NCBI GenBank assembly: GCA_046861395.1
Contig: JBHHUC010000044.1
Span: 1 to 17,147, forward strand
Origin: Fidelibacterota bacterium
GTDB lineage: Bacteria > Fidelibacterota > Marinisomatia > Marinisomatales > JABMOV01
DNA length: 17,147 nt
Direction of reading: 5' to 3'
The translations under genes were made by a program, and so were the position numbers. Each line of letters starts with the position of its first letter. The first letter of the stretch is position 1. Positions 1 to 14,611 of the stretch are shown here, in pieces. The notes under the pieces are model-generated. The model did no database searches and was not told where the DNA came from. It saw only the letters and a program-made list of their open reading frames with translations.

Positions 1-191
1 GCACTTTTCCCTGTCCGGAAGAATGCATTTACATGACCGGTGGCCCGAATGCCCAGAAAACACCCATTGATTATGAATTCTCCGAATATGATCGCAATAA
101 TCTGATCTATAAGTTTTCCCATGTCACGACGGAAGAAATTGAACGTGTGACACAACCGCCTAAACCAGTGGACACGGAGGAAAATGCATGA
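1..191 (+). CDS. nuoI: NADH-quinone oxidoreductase subunit I, 3' end (5'-truncated by window)
   Basis: Not in ORF track. Frame starting at base 3 reads (C)[62 protein letters not shown], i.e. the end of the second 4Fe-4S motif (CxxxCP) and the NuoI-like 'DYE.SEYDR..LIY' tail. TGA 189-191 overlaps the nuoJ ATG (ATGA). Confidence 0.88.
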   Translation, partial: TFPCPEECIYMTGGPNAQKTPIDYEFSEYDRNNLIYKFSHVTTEEIERVTQPPKPVDTEENA

Positions 192-676
192 TGATCCTGG
201 GGTTCTGGTTTGTGGTGTTGCTGACGGTTTTATCGGCCTTTTTCGTGGTTACCAGCCGTAATCTTGTCTATTCCGCCGTCAGCCTGTTTTTTACCTTTGT
301 GGGGGTGGCAGGACTCTACATTTTTCTCTGGGCCGATTTCCTGGCCGGGGTTCAAATCATGGTCTATGTAGGCGGGGTTCTGGTGCTCATCCTCTTCGGT
401 ATCATGCTCACCCACCGGATTACATCAGTGAATATTTCCCATGGCAGCCGACAAAGAAGTCCGGCGGCTTTGGTGACGATGATTATCATTGCCGGCCTGG
501 CCTGGGTTGTCCGGCATACACCCTGGTACTGGGCATCGTCCGTCGAACCCGACAGTACGGCCAGGGCAGTGGGTACCTCCATCATGACGGAATACCTGTT
601 ACCGTTTGAGGTGGCATCGATTCTACTGCTGGCGGCACTGGTTGGAGCCGCCGTATTATCAAGGAGGCAATCCTGA
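188..676 (+). CDS. nuoJ: NADH-quinone oxidoreductase subunit J
   Basis: 162 aa, hydrophobic. Motifs '[26 protein letters not shown]' and '[19 protein letters not shown]'. GGAGG at 176-180. Confidence 0.96.
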
Positions 677-981
677 TGGCGCAACTGGAAGTTTATTTAA
701 CCGTCGCCGCCATTTTGTTCGGCCTGGGGCTGTATGCCGTTATTAGTCGCCGCAATGCGGTAGCTGTATTAATGGGGGTAGAGCTCATCCTGAATGCCGC
801 CAATATCAATTTTATCGCCTTTTCCCGGTTTGGCGGCATGAATATTTCGGGACAGGTTTTTTCTCTATTTGTCATTATCATGGCAGCGGCCGAAGCGGCC
901 GTGGCGCTGGCCATCGTAATCAATATCTTTAAGAATTTCCAAACAATTAATGTGGATGAAGTCCATCAATTACGACGATGA
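676..981 (+). CDS. nuoK: NADH-quinone oxidoreductase subunit K
   Basis: 101 aa, 3 TM segments, both conserved glutamates ('[11 protein letters not shown]', '[10 protein letters not shown]'). AAGGAGG at 661-667; TGATG overlap with nuoJ. Confidence 0.97.
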
Positions 982-3023
982 ATATTTTCCTTAAATACGC
1001 CCTGGTCGTCTATTTTCTGCCGCTGGCAGCCTTTATCATTCAGACCTTTTTCGGGCGGAAATTACCACGGAAAGGGGATTGGGTTTCCATCTCCGCCATC
1101 CTGCTGGCCTTCGCTCTGTCCATTGCAATGTTCGCCGGTATGCTCTTGAATTATGACCCGGAATTCCAGGTCCACGGCTCATTCAACTGGATGGATCTGG
1201 GTCACTTCAGGATTCAGTTAGGTTTTCTCATTGACAATATGACCGTTATTATGATGCTGGTGGTAACACTGATTTCTTCCATGAGCCATATTTATTCACT
1301 GAAATACATGGAAGGTGATCCTGGCTACTCCCGTTATTATTCCTATCTCTCTCTGTTTACCTTTAGTATGATGGGAATTGTTCTGGCTGATAATCTGATG
1401 CTGTTATACGTCAGTTGGGAACTAGTGGGATTGAGTTCCTATTTATTAATCGGTTTCTGGTATGAAAAGGATAGCGCGGCCAATGCCGGGAAAAAAGCAT
1501 TTCTCACCAATCGGGTGGGGGATATCGGCTTTTTCATTGGTATCATGCTCTTTTTCACTGCCATCGGTTCCTTCAATTACCTGGATATTTTCGCCGGTGT
1601 GCAGTCCGGAATCATCAGCGGCACGGTCCTGACCCTGGCCGGCATTGGATTATTCATGGGTGCTGTGGGTAAATCGGCCCAGGTTCCACTTCATATCTGG
1701 TTGCCGGATGCCATGGAAGGTCCCACTCCAGTATCGGCTTTGATCCATGCCGCCACCATGGTGGCGGCCGGTGTCTACATGATGGTTCGCCTGTTCGGCA
1801 TCTTGTCACCGGATGCGCTGGTCCTGGTAGCTTATATCGGTGGAATTACAGCCTTGTTCGCCTCCTTGATTGCCATTACCCGGACTGATATTAAACAAGT
1901 TCTGGCCTATTCCACCGTGAGTCAGCTGGGTTACATGATTCTGGCGGTGGGAACCGGTGCTTATGTGGCCGGCTTTTTCCATCTTGTCACCCATGCCATG
2001 TTTAAGGCCAATTTATTTTATGGCGCCGGCAGTGTCATTCATGGCATGCATCACAGCCTGGATAAACTGGGTGATCATGATACCGATCCTCAGGATATGC
2101 GTAATATGGGCGGACTCAAGCGTAAAATGCCTGTGACCTACTGGTCCATGATGATAGGGTCACTGGCCATTTCCGGTGTTCCACTGTTCTCCGGATTTTT
2201 ATCCAAGGATGCCATTCTGGCCGGTACGCTGGCGTTTAGTCTGGAGCATCCGGGCCATATTCTATTACCGGTATTCGGATTCAGTGCGGCCTTGCTGACA
2301 GCCTTTTATATGTTCCGCATGATTTTTCTTACATTTCACAACGAACCGCAACGCCAGGATATTCATGCTCATATTCATGAATCCCCAGCGGCTATGAAAT
2401 TGCCCCTGGTTCTGTTAAGCGTTTTCAGTTTGTTTATTGTGTTTACGCTGCCGTCTCTGAACCCATTTCACGGGGAAGGCTGGTTACCCACTCTGGTGGA
2501 ATATCATAACAGTTTTATACCAGGAGGTCAGAGCGCGGAAGGCGTTGTAGAGGCATTGCATCATGCCCACGGAACAGCGATGACGCTCTCCCTGATCGTG
2601 GCGGCTCTGGGAATTGGGTTTGCTTTTCTGGTTTATTACAAGCATACGGTTTCAGCGGAAAAACTGGCCACGGTTACCGGCCCCTTTTACCGCCTTTCCC
2701 GGGAAAAATTTTTCATTGATGAACTCTATGCCAGATTATTATACCGCCCGTTTCTTAGATTGGCGGACCGGATCGCCTATTTGGATTGGGACCTTTATGA
2801 TAAATATTTCATCAATGGATTTGGGCACGTAACGACGTTCCTGTCGAATATTGTTGGTAAAGTGGATTACGACGGGCTGGATCAGACCCTGGTGGATGGT
2901 GTGGGTCGCTCTGCCAATTGGTTTGGCAGACGCCTGCGGACGGTCCAAACCGGTCGCGTTCAGCATTATGTCCTTTTTGCGCTGACAGCTATTATTATGC
3001 TTATGATTTGGAAAGCCATCTAG
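978..3023 (+). CDS. nuoL: NADH-quinone oxidoreductase subunit L (extended C-terminal amphipathic helix)
   Basis: 681 aa. Motifs '[15 protein letters not shown]', 'NRVGD', '[35 protein letters not shown]', '[12 protein letters not shown]', 'GFLSKDAIL', C-terminal 'QTGRVQHY'. ATGA overlap with nuoK. Confidence 0.97.
2784..2945 (+). repeat. Degenerate protein-level tandem duplication (2 x 27 aa) in the NuoL lateral helix
   Basis: Residues 603-629 [27 protein letters not shown] align with 630-656 [27 protein letters not shown] (pattern D-[WY]-D-x-x-D-x-x-h-h-[ND]-G-h-G, period 27 aa / 81 nt). Poorly conserved at DNA level. Confidence 0.7.
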
Positions 3024-3053: not shown

Positions 3054-4604
3054 ATGGATACAATGTATTTAAGTTGGTTGGTATGGTTGCCCGTGGTAGG
3101 CATGATCGCGATTGCCTTTATTCCCCGGGAACGAAATGATATCATCAAGATAGTTGCTGCCGTAGCAACCGGACTTCAAGTCTGGGTTGCCATGCTCCTA
3201 TGGGTAGATTTTGACAGCGCTGTAGGCGGTATTCAATTCGCGGAAAAACTGGCCTGGATTCCTTCCTTTAATATCAATTACCATCTGGGCATCGACGGTC
3301 TCAGTTTGCCCATGGTCATGCTTACACCGATTCTATCCTTTATCGCCGTCTTTGTCAGCTGGAAAATCGACCGGGCTGTGAAGGGGTATTTTGCGCTGTT
3401 TCTGCTCCTGGATACGGGCATGATCGGTGTTTTCCTGGCGTTGGACTTTTTCCTGTTTTATGTTTTCTGGGAAGTGATGCTCCTGCCCATGTATTTCCTG
3501 ATCGGTATTTGGGGTGGGCCGAAGCGGGAATATGCCGCCATTAAATTTTTCTTATTTACACTGGTGGGATCGGTCTTAATGCTGGTGGCGATTCTGGCCC
3601 TATATTTCTATTGCGGACGAACCTTTGATATGCTGGTTCTGATTGAAACTGCGCCCATGGCCCTAAATGGTGTCATATGGTGGGGTGTCTCCGCCATGAA
3701 GGTAATCTGGATTCTGTTATTCATCGGATTTGCCATTAAAGTCCCAATTTTCCCCTTCCATACCTGGTTACCCCTGGCGCACGTGGAAGCGCCCACGGCC
3801 ATTTCGGTCATTCTGGCGGGGATTCTTTTGAAACTGGGAGTGTACGGATTACTCCGGGTAAATTACGGCATGTTGCCGGATGGCGTTTGGTGGTTTGCCG
3901 GCGCCCTGGCATTTTTGGGATTGGTGAATGTTATCTGGGGCGCCATGTGTGCCCTGGCTCAGACCGACCTGAAAAAACTGGTGGCCTATTCCAGTATCAA
4001 CCACATGGGATACGCCCTGCTGGGGATGTCAGCGGTCGTTGCCGCTGGTGTGGCCAATGGTAGCAATGTCAGTGCCGCCGAAGCCGGTCTGACGGGCGCC
4101 ATTTTTCAGATGTTCAACCATGGTACGATTTCCGCCATGCTCTTTATCTTGGTGGGCGTTGTCTATGACAGGGCTCATCACCGGGATATAAATGGTTTTG
4201 GTGGTTTGGCCAAACAAATGCCGGTATATGCAGCTGTAACCGGCGTTGCCTTTTTTGCCGGTCTTGGGCTGCCGGGCATGTCGGGTTTCGTCAGTGAATT
4301 CATGTGCTTCGTCGGCGCTTTTCCCGTCTTCCGCGCTGTCGTCATTGTTTCCACTATTGGTATTTTACTCAACGCAGCCTATTTCCTCTGGGCCTATCAA
4401 CGGATTTTCTTTGGGAAAGTGAATGAAAAATACACGTCGCTGCATGATATCAACGGACGGGAATTGTTCGCCGTGGTTCCTCTGGCCATCATTACAATCA
4501 TCCTGGGAATTTATCCGGGCCCCTTCCTGGATATGCTTAAAGCAACCGTCACTGTCATTATTGATCACGTAGTTACCTGGGGAGACCTGGCACTTCTGCC
4601 GTAG
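3054..4604 (+). CDS. nuoM: NADH-quinone oxidoreductase subunit M
   Basis: 516 aa. Motifs 'LGIDGLS', 'FYVFWEVMLLPMYFLIGIWG', 'FAIKVPIFPFHTWLPLAHVEAPT', 'LLKLGVYG', 'GLPGMSGFVSEF'. AAAGGA at 3042-3047. Confidence 0.97.
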   Translation: MDTMYLSWLVWLPVVGMIAIAFIPRERNDIIKIVAAVATGLQVWVAMLLWVDFDSAVGGIQFAEKLAWIPSFNINYHLGIDGLSLPMVMLTPILSFIAVFVSWKIDRAVKGYFALFLLLDTGMIGVFLALDFFLFYVFWEVMLLPMYFLIGIWGGPKREYAAIKFFLFTLVGSVLMLVAILALYFYCGRTFDMLVLIETAPMALNGVIWWGVSAMKVIWILLFIGFAIKVPIFPFHTWLPLAHVEAPTAISVILAGILLKLGVYGLLRVNYGMLPDGVWWFAGALAFLGLVNVIWGAMCALAQTDLKKLVAYSSINHMGYALLGMSAVVAAGVANGSNVSAAEAGLTGAIFQMFNHGTISAMLFILVGVVYDRAHHRDINGFGGLAKQMPVYAAVTGVAFFAGLGLPGMSGFVSEFMCFVGAFPVFRAVVIVSTIGILLNAAYFLWAYQRIFFGKVNEKYTSLHDINGRELFAVVPLAIITIILGIYPGPFLDMLKATVTVIIDHVVTWGDLALLP

Positions 4605-4615
4605 GGGACGGACGC

Positions 4616-6088
4616 ATGGATAATCTGCAAAGTCTGCAATATTTCTGGCCGGAAATGCTCTTGGCCGGTGTAGCGATCCTTTTACTGTTGGTGGATATTT
4701 TCCGCCGGAAACCTACTGTACAATATTTACAGTGGATTGCCGTGGCAGGTGTCGTGCTGACCTTCATCGCCGTGGCACTCCAGAGTGGGCAGCCGGCCGT
4801 CACCTTGTTTTTCCAGCAGGTTGTTGCTGATCCCTTCGCTTTGTTTTTCAAAAGCCTGATCTTGTTGGCTACACTTTTTTTACTGTTTGTCATTGCAAAG
4901 TCCGAGCAATTGAAGACCTACCATCTGGGAGAATTTTTTTCCCTCATCTTTTTCATGGTGTTGGGCATGTTTCTATTGGTTTCGGCCTATGATCTGGTCA
5001 TGGTGTATCTTTCGCTGGAGGTCGTATCCATCACATCCTTCATTCTAGCCGGATACATGAAGCAGAATAAAGCATCCAATGAAGCGGCCTTGAAATATGT
5101 GATATACGGAGCATTCTCTTCCGGATTAATGCTTTTCGGGTTTAGCCTGCTTTACGGATTGACAGGGGCTACGAATTTTCATGCCATTGGATCGGCCGTT
5201 CCGCTGTTAGGGGGCACGGCTCAGGTGGCTCTGCTGATATCGGTTATTCTGGTGTTGGCCGGGTTTGGCTATAAAATTTCCGCCGTTCCCTTTCATTTCT
5301 GGACCCCAGATGTATATGAAGGAGCACCCACTCCCATCACGGCATATTTATCCGTGGCACCCAAGGCGGCCGGATTTGCGATTTTAATTCGCTTCTTCAG
5401 TGATATTTTTACTGCTATGCCCTTGGTGGAGGGCTGGTACGGCTGGCAGATGCTGCTGGCAGTCCTGGCAGCCGTCACCATGACATTGGGGAATCTGGTT
5501 GCGTTACAACAGACCAATGTGAAACGCATGCTGGCCTATTCCACCATCGCTCATGCCGGGTATATGCTTATGGGTATTCCCATTGTCTCTCAGGAGGGCC
5601 AATACGGAATCATGATTTATCTGATCATGTATTTATTCATGAATCTGGGGGCATTTTTCGTTGTCATCGCCGTGCAGAATCGCAGCGGAAGCGCCGACCT
5701 GGGAGCCTTCCGGGAACTAGGCTGGAAGATGCCGTTTCTGGGTGTTGTAATGACCATCTTCCTGTTTTCTCTTACTGGTCTGCCGCCTACCGCTGGATTC
5801 ATCGGAAAATTCTACATTTTTGCCGCTGTAATTAAAGCTGGGCCAGATTTTTACTGGCTGGCCCTGGTCGGTATTTTGAATAGTGTTGTCTCCCTGTATT
5901 ATTATTTCCGTGTGGTTAAAATTATGTTTTTAAGGGGAGAACGGCAGGAAACGCTGCTCAATCCTTCGCGGACCATGATGGCCTTGCTGATCTGTCTAGC
6001 GGTGCCGGTCTTATTCCTGGGGATTTACTGGGCACCCATTGCCGATTGGGTTCGAAACTCAATGGTATTATTTACCAACACACTGTAA
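4616..6088 (+). CDS. nuoN: NADH-quinone oxidoreductase subunit N
   Basis: 490 aa. Motifs 'YLSLEVVS', 'EAALKY', 'YKISAVPFHFWTPDVYEGAPTP', 'APKAAG', 'KRMLAYSTIAHAGY', 'GLPPTAGFIGKF'. Confidence 0.97.
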   Translation: MDNLQSLQYFWPEMLLAGVAILLLLVDIFRRKPTVQYLQWIAVAGVVLTFIAVALQSGQPAVTLFFQQVVADPFALFFKSLILLATLFLLFVIAKSEQLKTYHLGEFFSLIFFMVLGMFLLVSAYDLVMVYLSLEVVSITSFILAGYMKQNKASNEAALKYVIYGAFSSGLMLFGFSLLYGLTGATNFHAIGSAVPLLGGTAQVALLISVILVLAGFGYKISAVPFHFWTPDVYEGAPTPITAYLSVAPKAAGFAILIRFFSDIFTAMPLVEGWYGWQMLLAVLAAVTMTLGNLVALQQTNVKRMLAYSTIAHAGYMLMGIPIVSQEGQYGIMIYLIMYLFMNLGAFFVVIAVQNRSGSADLGAFRELGWKMPFLGVVMTIFLFSLTGLPPTAGFIGKFYIFAAVIKAGPDFYWLALVGILNSVVSLYYYFRVVKIMFLRGERQETLLNPSRTMMALLICLAVPVLFLGIYWAPIADWVRNSMVLFTNTL

Positions 6089-6100
6089 CCTGGAAAGACT

Positions 6101-7453
6101 ATGACCTACTTACGGTTAAAGAAAGGACACGATATTGGTATCAGCGGGAAACCGTTGGCGGAATACCTGGAATCGAAATCCATATCATCGGTTGCCTTAC
6201 TTCCAAATGAATTTCTCTATACCAAGCCGAAACTCATGGTGAAAGAGGGGCAATCCGTGCGTCGCGGAGAAGCGCTGTTTTATGACAAAAAACGACCCGA
6301 AATCAAATGGGCCTCTCCCGGTGGAGGAAAGGTAAAGCATGTGCAATTCGGAGCACGGCGGGTCGTGGAGCAAATTGTCATTGAATTGGACCAGGATGAA
6401 GACATCCTGGATCTCGGTTCCATCGCTGAAGGGGACTTGAGCGGAATGGGCCGGGAAGCGGTAATACAGCGGATTTTAGCCTTGCATCTCTGGCCTCTGA
6501 TCCGTCAACGGCCGTTCAATAAAATTGCCGATCCGTCAGTAACACCCAAAGCAGTGTTTATCTCAGCCTGGGATTCGGCTCCCTTGGCGGCCGATCTTGA
6601 ATTTATTCTGAAAGAGCAGGGCAGTGATTTCGCCGCAGGTCTGGATATTCTAGCTAAACTGACTGACGGAGAGATCCACCTGGCCATTCACGAAGACAAT
6701 ATGAGTGGCACATTCGATTCCTTGAGCCAGGTCCGGCTGCACCGTGTCAACGGTCCCCATCCGGCCGGAAATGTCGGAATTTTAATCCATCATCTGGCTC
6801 CGTTGAAACCGGGTGAAATTGTCTGGACCATGAATCCCCAACATGTTTTATTGCTAGCCAAAGCCTTCTCCACCGGACAGTATGACCCCACACTGACTGT
6901 GGCTGTCGGCGGTCCATCCTTAAACAGGACCGGCCATATCAAAACTAGGATGGGTGCCAATATTCAGAGTCTGGTCAAACCCTACCTACGGGACGGGGTT
7001 CATCGTCTGATTCGGGGAGATGTGCTAACGGGATCGATGGTACCGGAAGAAGGATATTTGGGATTTTATGATACCTGTGTCAGCTGTATTCCGGTGAGTA
7101 AGGAACGACCATTTCTAGGCTGGATTCGTCCCGGGTCCGCAAAAAAGAATTATTCGTTATCCCGGGCTTACCTGGGGCGGAACCGTTCTGATTTTGACTT
7201 TTCAACCCTGAAAAACGGAGGACAGAGAGCTTTGGTTCCCATCAACGCCTGGGAAGATGTCCTTCCCATGGATATTTTACCGAATCCATTATTTCGTGCC
7301 ATCCTGGCCCGGGATTTGGAAGAAATGGAAAAATTGGGTATTCTTGAAATGGTGGAAGAGGATGTAGCCCTGTGTAGTTTTGCCTGCCCCAGTAAAATTA
7401 ATCTGGGTCAAATCGTACGCCAGGGTCTAGACCTGATGGAAAAAGAGAGCTGA
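6101..7453 (+). CDS. nqrA: Na(+)-translocating NADH-quinone reductase subunit A
   Basis: 450 aa, soluble. Motifs 'LKKGHDIGISG', 'IRQRPFNKIA', 'GPHPAGNVG', 'LGILEMVEEDVALCSFACPSK'. First gene of an nqrA-F series. Confidence 0.95.
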   Translation: MTYLRLKKGHDIGISGKPLAEYLESKSISSVALLPNEFLYTKPKLMVKEGQSVRRGEALFYDKKRPEIKWASPGGGKVKHVQFGARRVVEQIVIELDQDEDILDLGSIAEGDLSGMGREAVIQRILALHLWPLIRQRPFNKIADPSVTPKAVFISAWDSAPLAADLEFILKEQGSDFAAGLDILAKLTDGEIHLAIHEDNMSGTFDSLSQVRLHRVNGPHPAGNVGILIHHLAPLKPGEIVWTMNPQHVLLLAKAFSTGQYDPTLTVAVGGPSLNRTGHIKTRMGANIQSLVKPYLRDGVHRLIRGDVLTGSMVPEEGYLGFYDTCVSCIPVSKERPFLGWIRPGSAKKNYSLSRAYLGRNRSDFDFSTLKNGGQRALVPINAWEDVLPMDILPNPLFRAILARDLEEMEKLGILEMVEEDVALCSFACPSKINLGQIVRQGLDLMEKES

Positions 7454-7455
7454 TT

Positions 7456-8631
7456 ATGAAAATCATTCGCAAACTCCATGATCAATTAAGACCAAAATTT
7501 GAGACCGGTGGTGCCTGGCATAAATTTCATCCCCTATTCGAAGCCCTGGACACATTCATGTTCAATACCGATGAGCAGACCCAGTCGGGGCCCCACATTC
7601 GGGACAGCATCGATCTTAAACGGGTCATGATCATTGTCGTATTCGCCCTGCTACCAGCCACCATTTTTGGTATGATTAATATCGGCTACCAGCAGGCCTT
7701 GGCTTCTGGTCTGGTTCGCAGTTGGGCCGAAAACTTGAGTGTGGGATGCTCGTATTTTATTCCTATTGCTCTGGTTTCCTATTTAACTGGCGGGTTCTGG
7801 GAAGTTCTCTTTTCCATTGTACGTAAACATGAAGTGGACGAAGGATTCCTGGTGACCGGTTTATTGATTCCATTGATCATGCCCCCGACAATTCCTCTCT
7901 GGCAGGTGGCTGTGGCCACCACCTTTGGTGTGGTCATTGGAAAAATGATTTTTGGCGGAACGGGAATGAATATTTTCAACCCGGCTCTGACGGCCCGTGC
8001 CTTTGTGTTTTTTGCCTATCCCGGTAATATATCCGGTGACAGTGTCTGGGTGGCCGGACCGGATGGCTTTTCGGGGGCAACGGCTCTGGCCATTCCCGCC
8101 GGACAAATCAGTCAGGATGCCGTTACATTACTGGATAAAGTAGCACAGTTCGATTTTTCCTGGTTTAATCTTTTCATGGGATGGGTTCCGGGATCCATCG
8201 GTGAAACCAGCGCCCTGATGATCCTGATTGGGGCCGTAATTCTGATTTATACTAAAATCGGGTCCTGGCGCATTATGGCCGGATCGGTATTGGGTTTGGT
8301 ACTGACTGCCTATCTCACCAATGCACTGTCGGGATATTCCACCAATACGATGCTGACCTTACCCCCCCATTATCATCTGGTCATGGGTGGGTTTCTTTTT
8401 GGTACTGTTTTCATGGCGACCGACCCCGTGTCTGCCTGCTATACCAATACGGGTCGTTGGATTTATGGCTTCCTCATTGGATTCCTCACCGTTATTATTC
8501 GTTCAATAAACCCGGCCTATCCAGAAGGAACCATGCTGGCTATATTATTAATGAATGCATTTTCGCCGTTGATCGATTATTTTATTGTTCAGCGGAATAT
8601 CAAAATAAGGATGGCGCGTTATGCGAAGTAA
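7456..8631 (+). CDS. nqrB: Na(+)-translocating NADH-quinone reductase subunit B
   Basis: 391 aa. Motifs 'HIRDSIDLKRVM', 'GGFWEVLF', 'FGGTGMNIFNPAL', FMN attachment motif 'DGFSGAT' (Thr209, nt 8080-8082), 'GSIGETS', 'FMATDPVS', 'PAYPEG', 'PLIDYF'. Confidence 0.97.
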   Translation: MKIIRKLHDQLRPKFETGGAWHKFHPLFEALDTFMFNTDEQTQSGPHIRDSIDLKRVMIIVVFALLPATIFGMINIGYQQALASGLVRSWAENLSVGCSYFIPIALVSYLTGGFWEVLFSIVRKHEVDEGFLVTGLLIPLIMPPTIPLWQVAVATTFGVVIGKMIFGGTGMNIFNPALTARAFVFFAYPGNISGDSVWVAGPDGFSGATALAIPAGQISQDAVTLLDKVAQFDFSWFNLFMGWVPGSIGETSALMILIGAVILIYTKIGSWRIMAGSVLGLVLTAYLTNALSGYSTNTMLTLPPHYHLVMGGFLFGTVFMATDPVSACYTNTGRWIYGFLIGFLTVIIRSINPAYPEGTMLAILLMNAFSPLIDYFIVQRNIKIRMARYAK

Positions 8632-9322
8632 CCGGTATGTCCTCACCTTCATGTCGGTGATTACGATCGTCCTGGGAATCCTGCTATCCGTGGCGGCCAC
8701 AGCCCTGAAGGATATCCAAGAACGGAATGTTCAGATTGACATGAAAAAAAATATTCTACGTTCCATGCAAATCCCCGCTGACCGAACCAAGAAACTGTCG
8801 CCCAATGAAATTGAAACCCTATACAACCAATACATAAAAGAAATATTTGTCAATAAGGAAGGCAATGACGTTTCGGAGGGAGGTCACCCTGTTTTTGTGA
8901 AGATGGTTGATGGGGTGGCGGACGGTTATGCTATTCCCATTTCCGGAAAGGGGTTGTGGTCAACGATTTACGGTTATATGGCTATTGAACCCGATGGTGC
9001 CACGGTCAAAGGTGTGACCTTCTATAAACATGGCGAAACACCGGGCCTGGGGGGCGAAATCGAAAAGGAATGGTTTACAGCCAACTTTATCGGGAAAAAG
9101 ATTGTTACCCCGGATGGAAAACCTTGTTCTGTGGAAGTGTATAAAGGAAAGGTTCATCCCGGAAATCCCAAGGAATATTGTCTGGTGGATGGAATCTCAG
9201 GAGCAACAATGACGGGAAAAGGCGTAACCTTGTTTATTAAAAAGGATTTAGAAATATATGGCGGATTTTTCGGCAAATTGCGACAATCCTATCAGGGGGG
9301 AGGGGTGAAATATGGCGCTTGA
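8621..9322 (+). CDS. nqrC: Na(+)-translocating NADH-quinone reductase subunit C
   Basis: 233 aa. N-terminal TM helix, '[10 protein letters not shown]', '[11 protein letters not shown]', FMN motif '[10 protein letters not shown]' (Thr196). 11-bp overlap with nqrB. Confidence 0.96.
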
Positions 9323-9935
9323 CAAGAAATCGAAACAGGCTTTTACCGATCCGCTGGTAAATAATAATCCAATTGCTTCCCAGATTCTCGGGATTTGTTC
9401 TGCGTTGGCGGTGACGGTGAAAATGGATACGGCCATTGTCATGACTCTGGCGGTACTGTTTGTTCTCTCCCTTTCCAATACCATTATTTCCATGATGCGG
9501 AAATGGATCCCAGGTCGGGTCCGAATTATTGTTCAACTGACAGTTATTGCATCTCTGGTGATCCTGGCTGATCAGATCCTAAGAGCTTATCTCTATGACA
9601 TCAGTAAGCAACTTTCCGTATTCGTTGGGTTGATTATTACCAACTGCATCGTCATGGGACGGGCCGAAGCCTTTGCCATGCAGAACCCACCGGGGCGCTC
9701 ATTCCTGGATGGTGCCGGCAATGCGCTGGGGTACGGACTGATTCTGATTACCGTCAGTTTTTTCCGTGAATTGTTCGGCAGCGGGACCTTACTGGGTATG
9801 CCCATCATTCCCCAGGCCTTCTATGATGCCGGTTATGTGAATGTCGGACTGTTTGTGTTATCGCCGGGAGCCTTTATCATCCTGGGATTAATAATCTGGG
9901 TGCAGCGTACCGTTTCCCACTATGAGGAGGCCTGA
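9312..9935 (+). CDS. nqrD: Na(+)-translocating NADH-quinone reductase subunit D
   Basis: 207 aa. Motifs '[18 protein letters not shown]', '[25 protein letters not shown]', 'RELFGSG'. Both Fe-S ligand cysteines present. Confidence 0.97.
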
Positions 9936-9937
9936 AG

Positions 9938-10549
9938 ATGCTTGAACATTATTTATCGCTGGTTACCAAATCCATTTTCATTGAAAATATATTACTGGCT
10001 TATTTTTTGGGCATGTGCTCTTTTTTGGCCATTTCCAAAAAAGTGGATACATCCATTGGTCTGGGCTTTGCCGTGGTTTTTGTTCTGACCATCACAACGC
10101 CGGTGAACTGGTTGATCCACTACTATTTTCTGCAGGACGGAGCACTGGTCTGGCTGGGATTCCCGGATGTGGATCTGAGTTTTTTAAATTTCATTGCTTT
10201 TATTGCCGTTATTGCTGCCATGGTGCAGTTGGTGGAAATGATTCTGGATCGCTTTTTCCCGCCACTATATTATGCGCTGGGGATCTTTTTGCCCTTAATT
10301 GCGGTGAATTGCGCCATCCTGGGTGGATCCCTTTTCATGGTGGAAAGGAACTATACCCTGGGTGAATCGACAGTTTTCGGTTTCGGTTCCGGCATGGGCT
10401 GGTTCCTGGCGATTGCTTCCATGGCCGCCATCAGGCATAAAATGCGCTATTCTAACGTACCGTCAGGACTCCGGGGCCTGGGGATCACAATGTTATTAAC
10501 AGGATTGCTCAGTATGGCATTTATGGCCTTCTCAGGAATCGATTTATAG
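9938..10549 (+). CDS. nqrE: Na(+)-translocating NADH-quinone reductase subunit E
   Basis: 203 aa. Motifs '[19 protein letters not shown]', '[10 protein letters not shown]', '[21 protein letters not shown]', '[13 protein letters not shown]'. GAGGAGG upstream. Confidence 0.97.
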
Positions 10550-10558
10550 GATTGATTT

Positions 10559-11782
10559 ATGATTACTGGAGTTATCGGTGTAATAGTATTCACAGCACTT
10601 ATTCTGCTGCTGGTCTTACTGCTGAATTTTGCCGAAAGCAAATTACTTCCTCAAGGGGATGTAACGATTACCATTAATGGTGAACCCAACAAGGCAGTGA
10701 CCGCCAAACCGGGATCAACCCTCCTGAATGCCCTGGTAAGTAAGAAGGTTTACCTGCCCAGTGCCTGTGGTGGTGGCGGGACCTGCGCCCAATGCAAATG
10801 TCAGGTTCTTTCTGGTGGCGGTGACATCCTGCCTACGGAAACCAGTCACATCAGCCGCAAAGAGGCTAAGGATCACTGGCGCCTGGCCTGTCAGGTAAAG
10901 GTGAAACAGGATTTATCCATTCAGGTCCCTGACGAAATATTCAGTATTCAGAAATGGGAGTGCAGCGTGCGGTCCAACCGCAATGTTGCCACGTTTATCA
11001 AGGAACTTATTCTGGACCTGCCGGAAGGGGAGCGTCTGGATTTCCGTGCCGGTGGTTATATCCAGATTGACATTCCCAAATATGAACTGGATTATAATGA
11101 ATTCGATATTGAGGAAGAATATCGTGATGTGTGGGACAAGTTTAACATGTGGAAATACCACGCCTCCAATGAAGAGGATATTTACCGGGCCTATTCCATG
11201 GCCAACCATCCGGCGGAAGGCAATATCGTGATGCTGAATGTCCGTATTGCGTCACCGCCGCCATGGGCACCAGATGCACCACCAGGAATTGCTTCTTCCT
11301 ATATTTTTAATCTGAAACCCGGAGATAAGGTATGGATTTCAGGACCGTATGGTGAATTTTTTGCCAAAGATACCGACCGTGAAATGGTCTTTATCGGTGG
11401 CGGAGCAGGTATGGCACCGATGCGGAGTCACATCTTTGATATTGTTAAGACAAAACGGACGAAGCGTAAAGTATCTTTCTGGTATGGCGCCCGGTCGGTG
11501 CGGGAAATGTTCTATGAAGAAGATTTCAAGGAACTGGCAGCAGAATTTCCGAATTTCACTTTTACCGTTGCCATGTCCGAACCCGTCCCCGAGGACAATT
11601 GGACCGGTCCAACCGGATTTATCCATCAGGTTCTCTATGATGAATATCTGAAAAACCATGATGATCCCGCAGAAATCGAATATTACATGTGTGGACCACC
11701 GCCAATGATTGATGCCGTGGACCGGATGCTGTATGATATCGGTGTTGAGCCGGAAATGATCGCCTACGACAAGTTTGGTTAA
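10559..11782 (+). CDS. nqrF: Na(+)-translocating NADH-quinone reductase subunit F
   Basis: 407 aa. N-terminal TM, 2Fe-2S motif '[12 protein letters not shown]...RLACQ', FAD motif 'RAYSMAN', NADH-binding '[12 protein letters not shown]', 'YMCGPP', C-terminal 'DKFG'. Confidence 0.98.
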
Positions 11783-11806
11783 TGGGGGTTGAAACACGGA
11801 ATTGAG

Positions 11807-12856
11807 ATGGAAATAAACCTTTATTTCAGGAAAAAAGTTCGTTTTGCGAGCTTTTTTCTTTTTATCCTGGTACTCTGGGCCGGCTGTCAATCAGATGAAC
11901 CGGAAACGGTTCTGCGGGGATATACCATGGGGACAACATATTCCATCCGTATTCCCGGTACCATCACCGTGTCGGAATCTTTTCTCAAGACAGCGGTTGA
12001 TTCGATATTAAGTGAAATCAATCATCAAATGTCTGCTTGGGATTCAACCTCAGATCTTACACGAATCAACCGTACGCAGGATCTTTCCTGGCATCCCATT
12101 CCTGTAGAATTCGCTGAAGTGTTGAATTTAAGCAACCACTTGTCGGACTTGACGGAAGGGGCCTTTGACATTACCGTCGGTCCCTTGATTGAATTATGGG
12201 GTTTTCACCGTCCTATTAAGCCGGAATACTGGAATCCGCCTTCGCCACAGGCTATTGATTCAACCTTACGTCATGTAGGTTATCGCCTTCTCCAGGTGAA
12301 AGGCAACCGGATACAGAAATTCGATCCCAATGTTGTGATTGATGTAAATGCCATCGCCAAGGGATACGGAGTGGATGCTATTGCCGAATGGCTGGATCAT
12401 ATCCCTGTGGAAAATTATATGGTAGAAATCGGGGGAGAAGTACGCTGTCGTGGAAAAAACAAACGGAACAGTTCCTGGGCAATAGGAATTGACAACCCCA
12501 CATTCGGCAGCCGTCCCGGAGAACGGTTTCACACGATTGTGGCCTTGCCGGATGGTGCCCTTGCTACCTCCGGTGATTATCGGAATTTTATTTCATATCA
12601 GGGGAAAACGTATAGCCACACGATTGATCCTCATACCGGATATCCTTCGCAATGGAAGGTGGGATCAGCCAGCGTGTTTGCTCCAGCCTGCGCTCTGGCA
12701 GACGGATTGGCAACGGCCTTGTTGGTTCTATCACCGGAGAAGGGATTAGCCCTTATTAATCAACTGGACGGTGTTGAAGCATTATTGATCGTGCGGACGG
12801 AAACAGGCTTTATAGATAAAAGATCGGATGGGTTTGCCGAACTGGAGAACCCTTAG
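11807..12856 (+). CDS. apbE: FAD:protein FMN transferase (ApbE), predicted lipoprotein
   Basis: Motifs 'TMGTTYSI', 'GAFDITVGPLIELWGF', 'DVNAIAKGYGVD', 'VEIGGE', 'ATSGDYRN', 'HTIDPHTG', 'ADGLATA'. Signal peptide with lipobox WAG|C. Start uncertain: ATG 11807 preferred, in-frame TTG 11789 possible. Confidence 0.95.
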   Translation: MEINLYFRKKVRFASFFLFILVLWAGCQSDEPETVLRGYTMGTTYSIRIPGTITVSESFLKTAVDSILSEINHQMSAWDSTSDLTRINRTQDLSWHPIPVEFAEVLNLSNHLSDLTEGAFDITVGPLIELWGFHRPIKPEYWNPPSPQAIDSTLRHVGYRLLQVKGNRIQKFDPNVVIDVNAIAKGYGVDAIAEWLDHIPVENYMVEIGGEVRCRGKNKRNSSWAIGIDNPTFGSRPGERFHTIVALPDGALATSGDYRNFISYQGKTYSHTIDPHTGYPSQWKVGSASVFAPACALADGLATALLVLSPEKGLALINQLDGVEALLIVRTETGFIDKRSDGFAELENP

Positions 12857-13177: not shown

Positions 13178-14611
13178 ATGTATAGAAAATCCCTGTTCAA
13201 GATAGTACCGATTGTCTTATTCCTGTTTAACCCGGTTCTGTTACTGGCAGAAGAGGCCGGCCACCATGCTCCGCATGTCGACGGGAGTTCCCTAGCGGTT
13301 TACTGGGTCATACCCTTTTTCGGCATTCTTCTTTCGATTGCAGTGATGCCACTGGTCGCACCGCGCTTCTGGCATCATAATTTCGGAAAAATATCATTCA
13401 TGTGGGCGGCAATCTTCATGATTCCCTTTTATTTCAGTGAAGGGTTTGATGTCACCCTGTTCGAACTGCTACACGTGGGTTTGCTGGACTACATTCCCTT
13501 CATCATTTTATTGTTTGCCTTATTTACCATCTCTGGAGGTATTCGTATTACCGGAACCTTGGTGGGACGCCCCGGATTCAATACCGGTCTTATACTACTG
13601 GGAACCATCCTAGCCAGCTGGATGGGAACGACCGGAGCCGCCATGCTGCTCATCCGGCCTTTGCTACGGGCCAATGCCTGGCGTAAACATAAGATTCACA
13701 TCGTTGTCTTTTTCATTTTCCTGGTGGCAAATATCGGTGGTTCTCTTACGCCGCTGGGAGATCCACCGCTTTTTCTGGGATTCCTAAAAGGTGTGGACTT
13801 TTTCTGGACTACCAAATCCATGTTTATTCCCATGGTTTCGGTAGTCGTATTCTTACTGACACTGTTTTATTTCATGGATTCATTTTATTATAAAAAAGAG
13901 GGGACAGCACCGAATCCAAGTGTCAGTGAACGCAAAATAGGCGTCGAAGGAGCAGTGAATTTTCTATTACTGGGAGGTGTGATCGGTTCCGTCCTTCTGA
14001 GCGGAATCTGGGATCCAAAAGTCACCTTCCATGTCTTTTACGTCGAAGTCTTATTACAGAATTTGACCCGTGATATTTTATTACTAATCCTGGCCTTTAT
14101 GAGTATGCGTCTGACCGCCGGGCAAATTCGGGAAAAGAATGAATTCACCTGGTTTCCCATTGTGGAAGTGGCCAAGCTCTTTGCTGGCATATTTGTCACC
14201 ATTATTCCTGCCATTGCCATCCTGAGAGCCGGCACCCACGGTGCCATGGCACCTATTATCAGCACCCTGTATTCCGATGGTGAACCACTGAATATCTGGT
14301 TTTTCTGGCGCACGGGTCTGTTGTCTAGTTTTCTGGATAATGCCCCCACCTATTTGGTTTTCTTTAACGCGGCTGGGGGGAATGCCATGGACTTGATGAC
14401 TACACACTATAATACCCTTCTGGCCATATCGGCCGGGGCAGTGTTTATGGGTGCCAACACCTATATCGGGAATGCCCCGAATTTCATGGTAAAATCCATC
14501 GCCGAAGAATCGGGTGTCCAGATGCCCAGCTTTTTTGGTTATATGCTGAAATATTCGCTCCCAATTCTCATTCCGACCTTCCTTTTGGTTGGGTTTATAT
14601 TCTTTACGTGA
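13178..14611 (+). CDS. Ion-transporter (IT) superfamily permease, putative sodium:proton antiporter (CitMHS_2-like)
   Basis: 477 aa, multi-TM. Motifs 'MGTTGAAMLLIRP', 'VANIGGSLTPLGDPPLFLG', 'EVAKLFAGIF', 'SSFLDNAPTYL', 'GAVFMGANTYIGNAPNFMV'. Probable cleavable signal followed by 'EEAGHHAPH'. Substrate is not demonstrable from sequence. Confidence 0.8.
   Translation: MYRKSLFKIVPIVLFLFNPVLLLAEEAGHHAPHVDGSSLAVYWVIPFFGILLSIAVMPLVAPRFWHHNFGKISFMWAAIFMIPFYFSEGFDVTLFELLHVGLLDYIPFIILLFALFTISGGIRITGTLVGRPGFNTGLILLGTILASWMGTTGAAMLLIRPLLRANAWRKHKIHIVVFFIFLVANIGGSLTPLGDPPLFLGFLKGVDFFWTTKSMFIPMVSVVVFLLTLFYFMDSFYYKKEGTAPNPSVSERKIGVEGAVNFLLLGGVIGSVLLSGIWDPKVTFHVFYVEVLLQNLTRDILLLILAFMSMRLTAGQIREKNEFTWFPIVEVAKLFAGIFVTIIPAIAILRAGTHGAMAPIISTLYSDGEPLNIWFFWRTGLLSSFLDNAPTYLVFFNAAGGNAMDLMTTHYNTLLAISAGAVFMGANTYIGNAPNFMVKSIAEESGVQMPSFFGYMLKYSLPILIPTFLLVGFIFFT

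What the first reader, a model, noticed from the sequence alone, without database searches (positions are those of the whole stretch)
2718..2954. NuoL lateral helix lengthened by a 27-aa duplication although the cluster has only one nuoM: a complex I built for a fourth membrane module
Seen: from the Asp of 'FFIDELY' (D581) to the Gly of 'QTG' (G659) there are 79 residues, containing two copies of a D-[WY]-D-xx-D-xx-hh-[ND]-G-h-G unit exactly 27 aa apart. Knowledge: the equivalent span is roughly 48-52 residues in ordinary NuoL (48 in E. coli by my recalled sequence). Large insertions in this helix are the described signature of '2M' complex I cassettes encoding a fourth antiporter-like subunit (Chadwick et al. 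2018). 27 helical residues add about 40 A, roughly one antiporter subunit. Seen: the order here is J-K-L-M-N with a single nuoM and no remnant of a second. Inference: the slot could be filled by (a) two copies of the same NuoM, a cryptic 2M complex invisible to gene counting, (b) a NuoM/MrpD-like subunit encoded elsewhere, or (c) a different membrane partner such as part of the adjacent NQR; or (d) the extension is a relic. Options a and b would predict a higher ion/electron stoichiometry, which suits a low-potential donor or reverse electron flow.
Basis: partly seen in the sequence, partly recalled or inferred. Interest (0 to 1): 0.8.

Follow-up and report, generated by a model that had tools for sequence, protein, structure and literature searches.

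The report
Complex I strap for fourth pump
In this marine bacterium the helix that straps together the proton pumps of respiratory complex I is one pump-width longer than usual although the genome shows only three pump genes, and the enzyme likely builds its middle pump (NuoM) in twice, which would let it move an extra proton per turnover.

Summary
Confirmed. NuoL (978-3023) spans 79 residues from D581 to G659, against 48-55 in 129 ordinary clusters and 77-81 in two-nuoM (2M) clusters. The extra length is an old 27-residue duplication. The genome (Marinimicrobia, 94% complete) has three antiporter-like genes and no nuoEFG; 57 of 88 genomes of the order have exactly three, one of them a single contig. 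That counts against a pump gene elsewhere. NQR is missing from long-helix genomes.

Best reading, inferred (0.58): one nuoM supplies two adjacent subunits (L-M-M-N).

For:
- Both modules keep the NuoM-anchoring Asp (143/143, 142/143).
- Lengths come in whole modules.
- The modules stay alike with one nuoM and diverge in true 2M clusters.
- nuoM has the stronger ribosome site in 96/113 long versus 14/46 short clusters.

Against:
- The ribosome-site proxy fails in this window and weakens in a metagenome sample.
- Single-nuoM helices with 2-3 extra modules exist.
- No complex model could be run.

The mismatch is in print (Yu 2022), and this scan found it at least eight times on other DNA. I did not find the one-gene, two-copy explanation in print.

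The parts
978..3023 (+). nuoL, 681 aa, antiporter-like subunit with the long lateral helix HL
   Evidence: NCBIfam NF005141 and TIGR01974 over cut-off; AF2 model
2718..2954 (+). HL span D581-G659, 79 aa; predicted as one helix 580-657 at low confidence (pLDDT about 50-64)
2763..2843 (+). HL module 1 (about residues 596-622) with anchor D603 (codon 2784-2786) and D608
   Evidence: D603 in 143 of 143 and D608 in 142 of 143 aligned clade members; coordinates; module borders approximate
2844..2924 (+). HL module 2 (about residues 623-649) with anchor D630 (codon 2865-2867) and D635
   Evidence: D630 and D635 each in 142 of 143; coordinates; module borders approximate
2946..3017 (+). Q657-T-G659 motif and final helix 661-680 (TM16), intact
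   Evidence: Q657 141 of 143, G659 143 of 143; helix
3024..3053 (+). 30-nt nuoL-nuoM spacer with nuoM's own ribosome-binding site; AU-rich, weakly structured
   Evidence: SD -6.1, local fold -1.7 kcal/mol; sequence
3054..4604 (+). nuoM, 516 aa, the only nuoM; keeps TM5 Glu, TM7 Lys and His, TM10 Tyr, TM12 Glu
4616..6088 (+). nuoN, 490 aa
   Evidence: TIGR01770 over cut-off
3..981 (+). 3' end of nuoI, nuoJ and nuoK; nuoA-B-C-D-H and the nuoI 5' part continue on contig C95; no nuoEFG
6101..11782 (+). nqrABCDEF, adjacent but not part of the element; likely the cell's NADH dehydrogenase
   Evidence: adjacency not conserved

Best explanation
NuoL of this 11-subunit complex I has a lateral helix one 27-residue module longer than usual and the genome shows one nuoM, and the enzyme likely assembles as L-M-M-N with two NuoM subunits from that single gene, which would give it a fourth antiporter module. 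Each module carries the Asp that in solved complexes grips NuoM, so the anchors D603, D630 and Q657 sit 27 residues (about 40 A) apart and are predicted to dock on NuoM, NuoM and NuoN before TM16 closes the arm. nuoM is predicted to be translated more strongly from its own start site. With no nuoEFG and three 2-oxoacid:ferredoxin oxidoreductases in the genome, the donor is likely ferredoxin or flavodoxin, and the larger redox drop would pay for about 5 H+ per 2 electrons instead of 4. Shown: length, duplication, conservation, gene counts. Inferred: the second NuoM, the donor, the stoichiometry.
For: (1) HL length tracks antiporter number in solved relatives (PMC8165549 passage). Spans in 299 distinct clusters are 48-55 (129), 76-82 with one M (161) or 77-81 with two M (9), none between 56 and 75. 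(2) P. denitrificans D648 on HL binds NuoM H239/Y315 (PMC9802314). By the motif that follows it (alignment, my mapping) both D603 and D630 correspond to it; they are Asp in 143 and 142 of 143 clade members, against 88% for the single copy in short helices. (3) The two modules stay alike where there is one nuoM (median score 41; 150 of 173 above the 2M maximum of 24; window 29) and diverge where two different M genes exist (median 15, n=16); within one Chloroflexota clade it is 32 versus 15. (4) The same one-residue insertion is in both modules in 40 of 48 Marinisomatota, in the first only in 3, in neither in 4, and 1 is unclassified. (5) nuoM SD is stronger than the mean of nuoL and nuoN in 96 of 113 long versus 14 of 46 short clusters, and in 0 of 4 2M clusters; the L-M gap is 3 nt or less in 1 of 158 long versus 56 of 122 short. 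With SD-independent starts it is 80 of 112 versus 15 of 46. In Dehalococcoidia (2 of the 4 long clusters fetched after the prediction) nuoM is strongest in 4 of 4 long (2 origins) versus 4 of 16 short. atpE has the strongest SD of the atp operon in this genome. (6) No spare antiporter gene. (7) In E. coli, loss of TM16 abolishes activity and 6-7 residue loops in HL often destabilise the enzyme (PMC3274701). (8) Long helices are not one clade (AU p 2e-25, 5 changes among 38 rows).
Against: No direct evidence of a NuoM-NuoM contact. In this window nuoM's SD (-6.1) is not above nuoN's (-6.8), nuoJ and nuoK are stronger, and the equimolar nqr genes range from -3.3 to -12.3. The SD bias also appears in short Poribacteria clusters (5 of 6) and short metagenome clusters (19 of 24, median -1.15, against 7 of 9, median -3.5 for long). 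It is absent in Anaerolineae span-82 (1 of 3) and weak in Chloroflexota span-78 (2 of 5) and Planctomycetota (3 of 5, then 1 of 5). One long Dehalococcoidia cluster has overlapping nuoL-nuoM, and those long genomes hold 5-6 antiporter genes. Single-nuoM clusters with spans 103-105 (9) and 132-133 (4) exist, and fragments reach 129 and 155 (printed +1); strict counting would then mean 3-5 NuoM. Once a repeat exists, recombination alone gives whole-module steps. Module likeness could reflect age or gene conversion. Most counted rows belong to one clade and are not independent. The interface-convergence test was inconclusive.
Confidence: 0.58

Rival explanations
1. Three antiporters only. The extra module loops out or lies on the membrane as a tolerated repeat or a relic of a lost second nuoM, perhaps kept as a second grip on NuoM.
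For: Helices with 2-4 extra modules and one nuoM show that the repeat expands readily. Yu 2022 allows an evolutionary transition. In one tree Chloroflexota single-M long clusters nest among 2M clusters, which fits loss of M2. AF2 confidence for HL is low. Some HL insertions are tolerated in E. coli.
Against: Four aspartates are near-invariant over five phyla; no eroded intermediate lengths among 299 clusters; parallel change in both modules. No 2M cluster lies in the window's clade, and with more sampling 2M clusters nest among single-M long ones.
Confidence: 0.17
2. The helix spans four modules in another arrangement, such as a second NuoN or a helix that crosses to the NuoM of a second complex in a dimer.
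For: The His and Tyr that bind the HL Asp are conserved in NuoN as well as NuoM, so NuoN could accept an Asp anchor. nuoN's SD is as strong as nuoM's in this window and in Poribacteria and Chloroflexota long clusters.
Against: The duplicated unit is the Asp-x4-Asp-Gly type that sits over NuoM, not the Gln-Thr-Gly type at the NuoN end (assignment of the Gln to NuoN is inferred). The SD bias favours nuoM over nuoN in Marinisomatota, Ignavibacteria and KSB1.
Confidence: 0.12
3. An unrelated membrane protein encoded elsewhere fills the slot, for example the CitMHS_2 transporter or a part of NQR.
For: nqrA-F follows nuoN here. A PF16980 gene lies in the window and sits between nuoM and nuoN in other nuo clusters.
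Against: NQR is not found in four long-helix genomes. The PF16980 insertion goes with short helices (spans 52-53). Module 2 keeps the anchor for an antiporter-type fold. An unknown partner cannot be excluded.
Confidence: 0.09
4. A second NuoM- or MrpD-like gene elsewhere in the genome supplies the fourth module.
For: This genome is 94% complete in 136 contigs. The option stays plausible in other lineages: Anaerolineae span-82 clusters have diverged modules (median 12.5) and several share genomes with a 2M cluster.
Against: Only 3 PF00361 matches here, in 57 of 88 genomes of the order and in single-contig G198.
Confidence: 0.04

Closest known systems
Single-nuoM clusters Complex_I_1 and Complex_I_2 of 'Ca. 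Manganitrophaceae' with the NuoL insertion (Yu et al. 2022, PMC9040806; section 10 read, Fig. S2 not seen)
   Same: Canonical gene content and order with an HL insertion like the 26-aa one the paper describes.
   Different: Those genomes hold three complex I clusters, including extra NuoM and MrpD genes; this genome has no spare antiporter gene. The paper leaves the use of the insertion open and does not name two copies from one gene in the section read.
2M complex I (Chadwick et al. 2018, ISME J 12:2668; not held, known only through PMC9040806, PMC6606698, PMC7117926, PMC7419157)
   Same: Lengthened NuoL: 77 in Nitrospira-type B-C-D-G-I-J-K-L-M-M-N clusters and 77-81 in Chloroflexota, 79 here.
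   Different: No second nuoM gene. The window's NuoL and NuoM group with neither 2M lineage. In 2M clusters the two M genes are distant, not sisters, and the HL modules have diverged.
Headless 11-subunit complex I (nuoABCDHIJKLMN), e.g. the second locus of Caldithrix abyssi (PMC5317091 passage) and cyanobacterial NDH-1 (6HUM)
   Same: Same gene set, no nuoEFG; ferredoxin proposed as donor; NdhF1 is the best PDB sequence match.
   Different: Solved NdhF1 has the short helix and three antiporters. I did not measure the Caldithrix helix.
Canonical three-antiporter complex I (E. coli, T. thermophilus, P. denitrificans)
   Same: Same fold (Foldseek TM 0.71-0.77 for these) and the key Glu, Lys, His and Tyr residues in L, M and N.
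   Different: HL here is 27-31 residues longer and has two Asp anchors; N-module absent.

Membership tests
2M complex I | NuoL lateral helix lengthened by about 26 residues | tested here: met
   79 versus 48-55; 2M clusters 77-81
2M complex I | A second nuoM gene in the cluster | tested here: not met
   L-M-N only; three PF00361 genes in the genome
2M complex I | Belongs to a described 2M lineage | tested here: not met
   Separate from Nitrospira-type and Chloroflexota 2M clusters in NuoL and NuoM trees; the third published clade was not sampled, and 'Nitrospira-type' is by gene order only
2M complex I | Four antiporter subunits in the assembled enzyme and more than 4 H+ per 2 electrons | not testable with these tools
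   Needs structure, proteomics or pumping assays; only indirect sequence signals here
Headless 11-subunit complex I | nuoABCDHIJKLMN without nuoEFG | tested here: met
   A-B-C-D-H-I on C95 continuing into the window; no tblastn or TIGR01959 match for the N-module; genome 94% complete
Headless 11-subunit complex I | Ferredoxin or flavodoxin as electron donor | not testable with these tools
   Three PF01855 genes in the genome make it plausible only
Long-helix, single-nuoM complex I (Manganitrophaceae type) | HL insertion with canonical L-M-N order | tested here: met
   descent from the Manganitrophaceae clusters was not tested
Mrp antiporter / Fpo | MrpA/MrpD or FpoL family score over cut-off | tested here: not met
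   All under cut-off while NuoL, NuoM and NuoN models pass; the FpoL profile leaves 33 positions for 55 residues at the C-terminus

The most novel reading that the evidence does not exclude
The NuoL lateral helix is a molecular ruler that sets how many copies of a self-associating NuoM are built into complex I: two here and across Marinisomatota, Ignavibacteria, KSB1, Poribacteria and part of Planctomycetota, three or four in some Anaerolineae. A cell changes its H+/electron gearing by adding a 26-29 residue repeat with no new gene, and described 2M complexes arose when a foreign NuoM took over one of these ready-made slots.
Probability: 0.35. Interest if true: 0.85.

Novelty: new variant of a known kind. 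Interest (0 to 1): 0.6.

Why it matters
Complex I core subunits are taken to be 1:1, and pump number is read from gene count. If one nuoM supplies two subunits, four-antiporter enzymes are far commoner than gene counting shows. That would include a common marine phylum in which this appears to be the only complex I in most genomes examined, and energy budgets for such organisms would change. It would also offer a simple route to the repeated appearance of 2M complexes. A natural series of enzymes with 3, 4 or more identical modules would test directly whether each antiporter adds one proton. As a single locus the window is an ordinary member of a widespread family; its value is that the lineage has no spare pump gene, which narrows the options.

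Tried and rejected
Complex prediction of NuoM with itself was not available; no verdict. No RNA holder was listed for the locus. The single-chain AF2 model gives a continuous helix but at pLDDT about 50-64 and without partners, so it cannot show docking. Paralog-interface convergence: L-M similarity is higher at TM4, 5 and 8 and M-N at TM13 in long clusters, but the driving positions are scattered, faces were not defined from coordinates and the Anaerolineae span-82 lineage shows nothing; inconclusive. Hydrophobic-moment scan: uninformative. Module co-evolution by phylum: same-phylum above other-phylum in Marinisomatota, KSB1 and Ignavibacteria, about equal in Planctomycetota, reversed in Poribacteria. 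A DNA-level repeat was not found. The idea that 2M arises by duplicating the resident nuoM is rejected for both 2M groups sampled. A motif-based count of long helices over all GTDB genomes was not made, so no global frequency is given. Chadwick 2018, Zhu and Vik 2015 and Baradaran 2013 are not held. Paper searches for the two-copies idea found nothing beyond the papers cited (Marinimicrobia context); Chadwick 2018 and Fig. S2 of Yu 2022, which I could not see, may bear on novelty.

Full report
Observation. The window is the start of contig C94 of a 94% complete genome; named close homologues are Marinimicrobia. It carries the 3' end of nuoI, nuoJ, K, L (978-3023), M (3054-4604), N (4616-6088), then nqrA-F. 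D581 to G659 of NuoL is 79 residues, best self-match at lag 27; the cores at D603 and D630 score 29, reached by 8 of 2000 shuffles, and the DNA copies share only 34 of 81 nt. Solved NuoL proteins align with a break of 27-29 residues here. AF2 draws one helix 580-657 at low confidence.

Context. nuoA-B-C-D-H and the start of nuoI end contig C95, so this is one 11-gene cluster; nuoEFG were not found, and three 2-oxoacid:ferredoxin oxidoreductase genes are present. The genome has three antiporter-like genes. Of 88 genomes of the order, 57 have exactly three, 16 none and 15 another number (counted from the table); single-contig G198 has three. All 32 genomes of the order whose NuoL I measured span 79-80. 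Other classes of the phylum span 77-80, while second, 14-subunit clusters in the same genomes span 52.

Spread. All 80 loci from a GTDB scan with a long-helix query have one M at most; 79 parse at 77-79 and one did not parse. This sample is biased to long helices by design. Phylum samples centred on nuoM gave both kinds. Among 299 distinct clusters (346 before removing duplicates), spans are 48-55 (129), 76-82 with one M (161, of which 132 show nuoN next) and 77-81 with two M (9). In a metagenome sample, short helices went with one M in 32 of 32 countable cases and one-module-longer helices with one M in 13 and two M in 4; 30 were uncountable. Of 150 profile hits, 139 span 77-80, four span 104-155 and 7 did not parse (printed +1). 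In Anaerolineae, spans 103-105 go with one M in 9 clusters and two M in 1, and 132-133 with one M in 4. Trees built without the helix put the window in a clade with KSB1, Poribacteria, Planctomycetota and, by NuoM, Ignavibacteria. Monophyly of long helices is rejected (p 2e-25, 38 rows), with further origins among short-helix Dehalococcoidia.

What the module is. In P. denitrificans, HL residue D648 binds H239 and Y315 of NuoM, and the helix is structural rather than a coupling rod (PMC9802314, passages). By the motif that follows it, D603 and D630 both correspond to D648; this mapping is mine, and HMMER's gapless piece paired D648 with D635. In 143 clade members D603, D608, D630 and D635 are present 143, 142, 142 and 142 times. 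D603, D630 and Q657 are 27 apart, and the single Asp-to-Gln distance in short helices is 26. HL is described as just long enough for one, two or three antiporters in MBH, Mrp/MBS and complex I (PMC8165549, passages). In E. coli, loss of TM16 kills activity and several 6-7 residue insertions destabilise, though some are tolerated (PMC3274701, abstract and passages).

Tests of two copies from one gene. (i) If both modules bind the same protein they should stay alike. Median self-score is 41 in 173 single-M clusters and 15 in 16 two-M clusters; within one Chloroflexota clade 32 versus 15; the window scores 29. Anaerolineae span-82 clusters are the exception (12.5); several of those genomes also hold a 2M cluster. 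(ii) Both modules gained one residue at the same place in 40 of 48 Marinisomatota. (iii) nuoM has the stronger predicted ribosome site in 96 of 113 long versus 14 of 46 short clusters, and nuoL-nuoM are tightly coupled in 1 of 158 versus 56 of 122; with SD-independent starts 80 of 112 versus 15 of 46; in Dehalococcoidia nuoM is strongest in 4 of 4 versus 4 of 16. Against: the proxy is noisy, fails for nuoM versus nuoN in this window, and shows a weaker bias of the same sign in short metagenome clusters (19 of 24) and short Poribacteria clusters (5 of 6). Most rows are kin. (iv) Interface convergence was inconclusive. A complex model could not be run.

Rivals. A gene in trans is unlikely here. 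NQR is not found in four long-helix genomes and follows nuoN only in part of Marinisomatota. The CitMHS_2 gene inserts between nuoM and nuoN only in short-helix clusters. A relic or tolerated loop is the main rival: ladders of up to four extra modules show that the repeat expands, and recombination between repeats gives whole-module steps without selection. It does not explain why the two-module state and its four aspartates persist across phyla when contraction should be as easy. A second NuoN or a cross-dimer strap is not excluded.

Energetics. With recalled potentials (ferredoxin to menaquinone about 0.36-0.43 V), five protons per two electrons are feasible below about 144-172 mV, whereas an NADH donor (0.25 V) would need 100 mV or less (arithmetic). 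This fits a headless enzyme beside an NQR that handles NADH. The donor, quinone and direction were not tested.

Known work. Yu et al. 2022 report the insertion in canonical-content clusters of Manganitrophaceae and say these can either already take extra subunits or are in transition (PMC9040806, section 10 read, supplements searched, Fig. S2 not seen). 2M complexes are known to me only through passages of citing papers; the original is not held. In the 2M clusters sampled, the two M genes are distant lineages, and the window belongs to neither group, so it is not filed as 2M, though it likely works like one. Searches for a one-gene, two-copy proposal found none. This scan had noted the same mismatch on at least eight other stretches of DNA; those notes are unchecked and are not counted as support.

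Verdict. Real, old, widespread and under selection; a new variant of a known kind. L-M-M-N from one nuoM 0.58; loop or relic 0.17; other four-module geometry 0.12; unrelated partner 0.09; gene in trans 0.04. Interest 0.6.

Noticed in passing
window 13178-14611; L039:9703-11193, L041:8518-9960, L326, L327, L329-L331, L352-L359, L349, L350: A PF16980 (CitMHS_2) membrane protein lies downstream of nqr here; homologues sit between nuoM and nuoN in short-helix second nuo clusters of Marinisomatota and Poribacteria and before nuoJ in two KSB1 clusters, a recurrent link to complex I.
   Followed up: partly
L502-L513, L515, L516 (Anaerolineae class); P0185, P0242: NuoL helices with two or three extra modules beside a single nuoM (spans 103-105, 132-133); fragments with spans 129 and 155, the latter labelled Actinomycetota by its source.
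   Followed up: partly
L507 (G612:C33): Three-module helix (span 104) with two nuoM genes of different lineages: one more module than genes.
   Followed up: partly
L383 (G501:C13): A recent-looking 26-residue duplication in a Dehalococcoidia NuoL, separate from the span-82 lineage on the tree.
   Followed up: partly
L136, L137, L139, L140, L142, L144, L148, L149 with L164-L171: Anaerolineae genomes with a long-helix single-nuoM cluster whose modules have diverged, several also holding a 2M cluster; a candidate for sharing a NuoM in trans.
   Followed up: no
L366 (G359:C6): Planctomycete long-helix NuoL whose core groups with short-helix NuoL while its NuoM groups with the window's clade; possible chimaera.
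   Followed up: no
L034:12187-13593, L035:8272, L037:10489: NuoI reading frames of 410-478 aa, about twice the usual length, in same-class genomes; Pfam finds only the N-terminal 4Fe-4S region in the one scanned.
   Followed up: no
family f13 / genus g14 of the order: 15 small genomes (0.8-1.1 Mb, 92-99% complete) with no antiporter-like gene found at all.
   Followed up: no
window 6101-12856: Complete nqrABCDEF plus apbE starts 12 nt after nuoN; this nuo-nqr junction is seen in 9 of 16 Marinisomatota clusters with room to check.
   Followed up: partly
L164, L167, L168, L171 (complete 2M clusters, second NuoM): In the merged alignment the N-proximal NuoM shows Leu at the TM7 Lys column and Phe at the TM10 Tyr column in 4 of 4; the first may be an alignment shift.
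   Followed up: no
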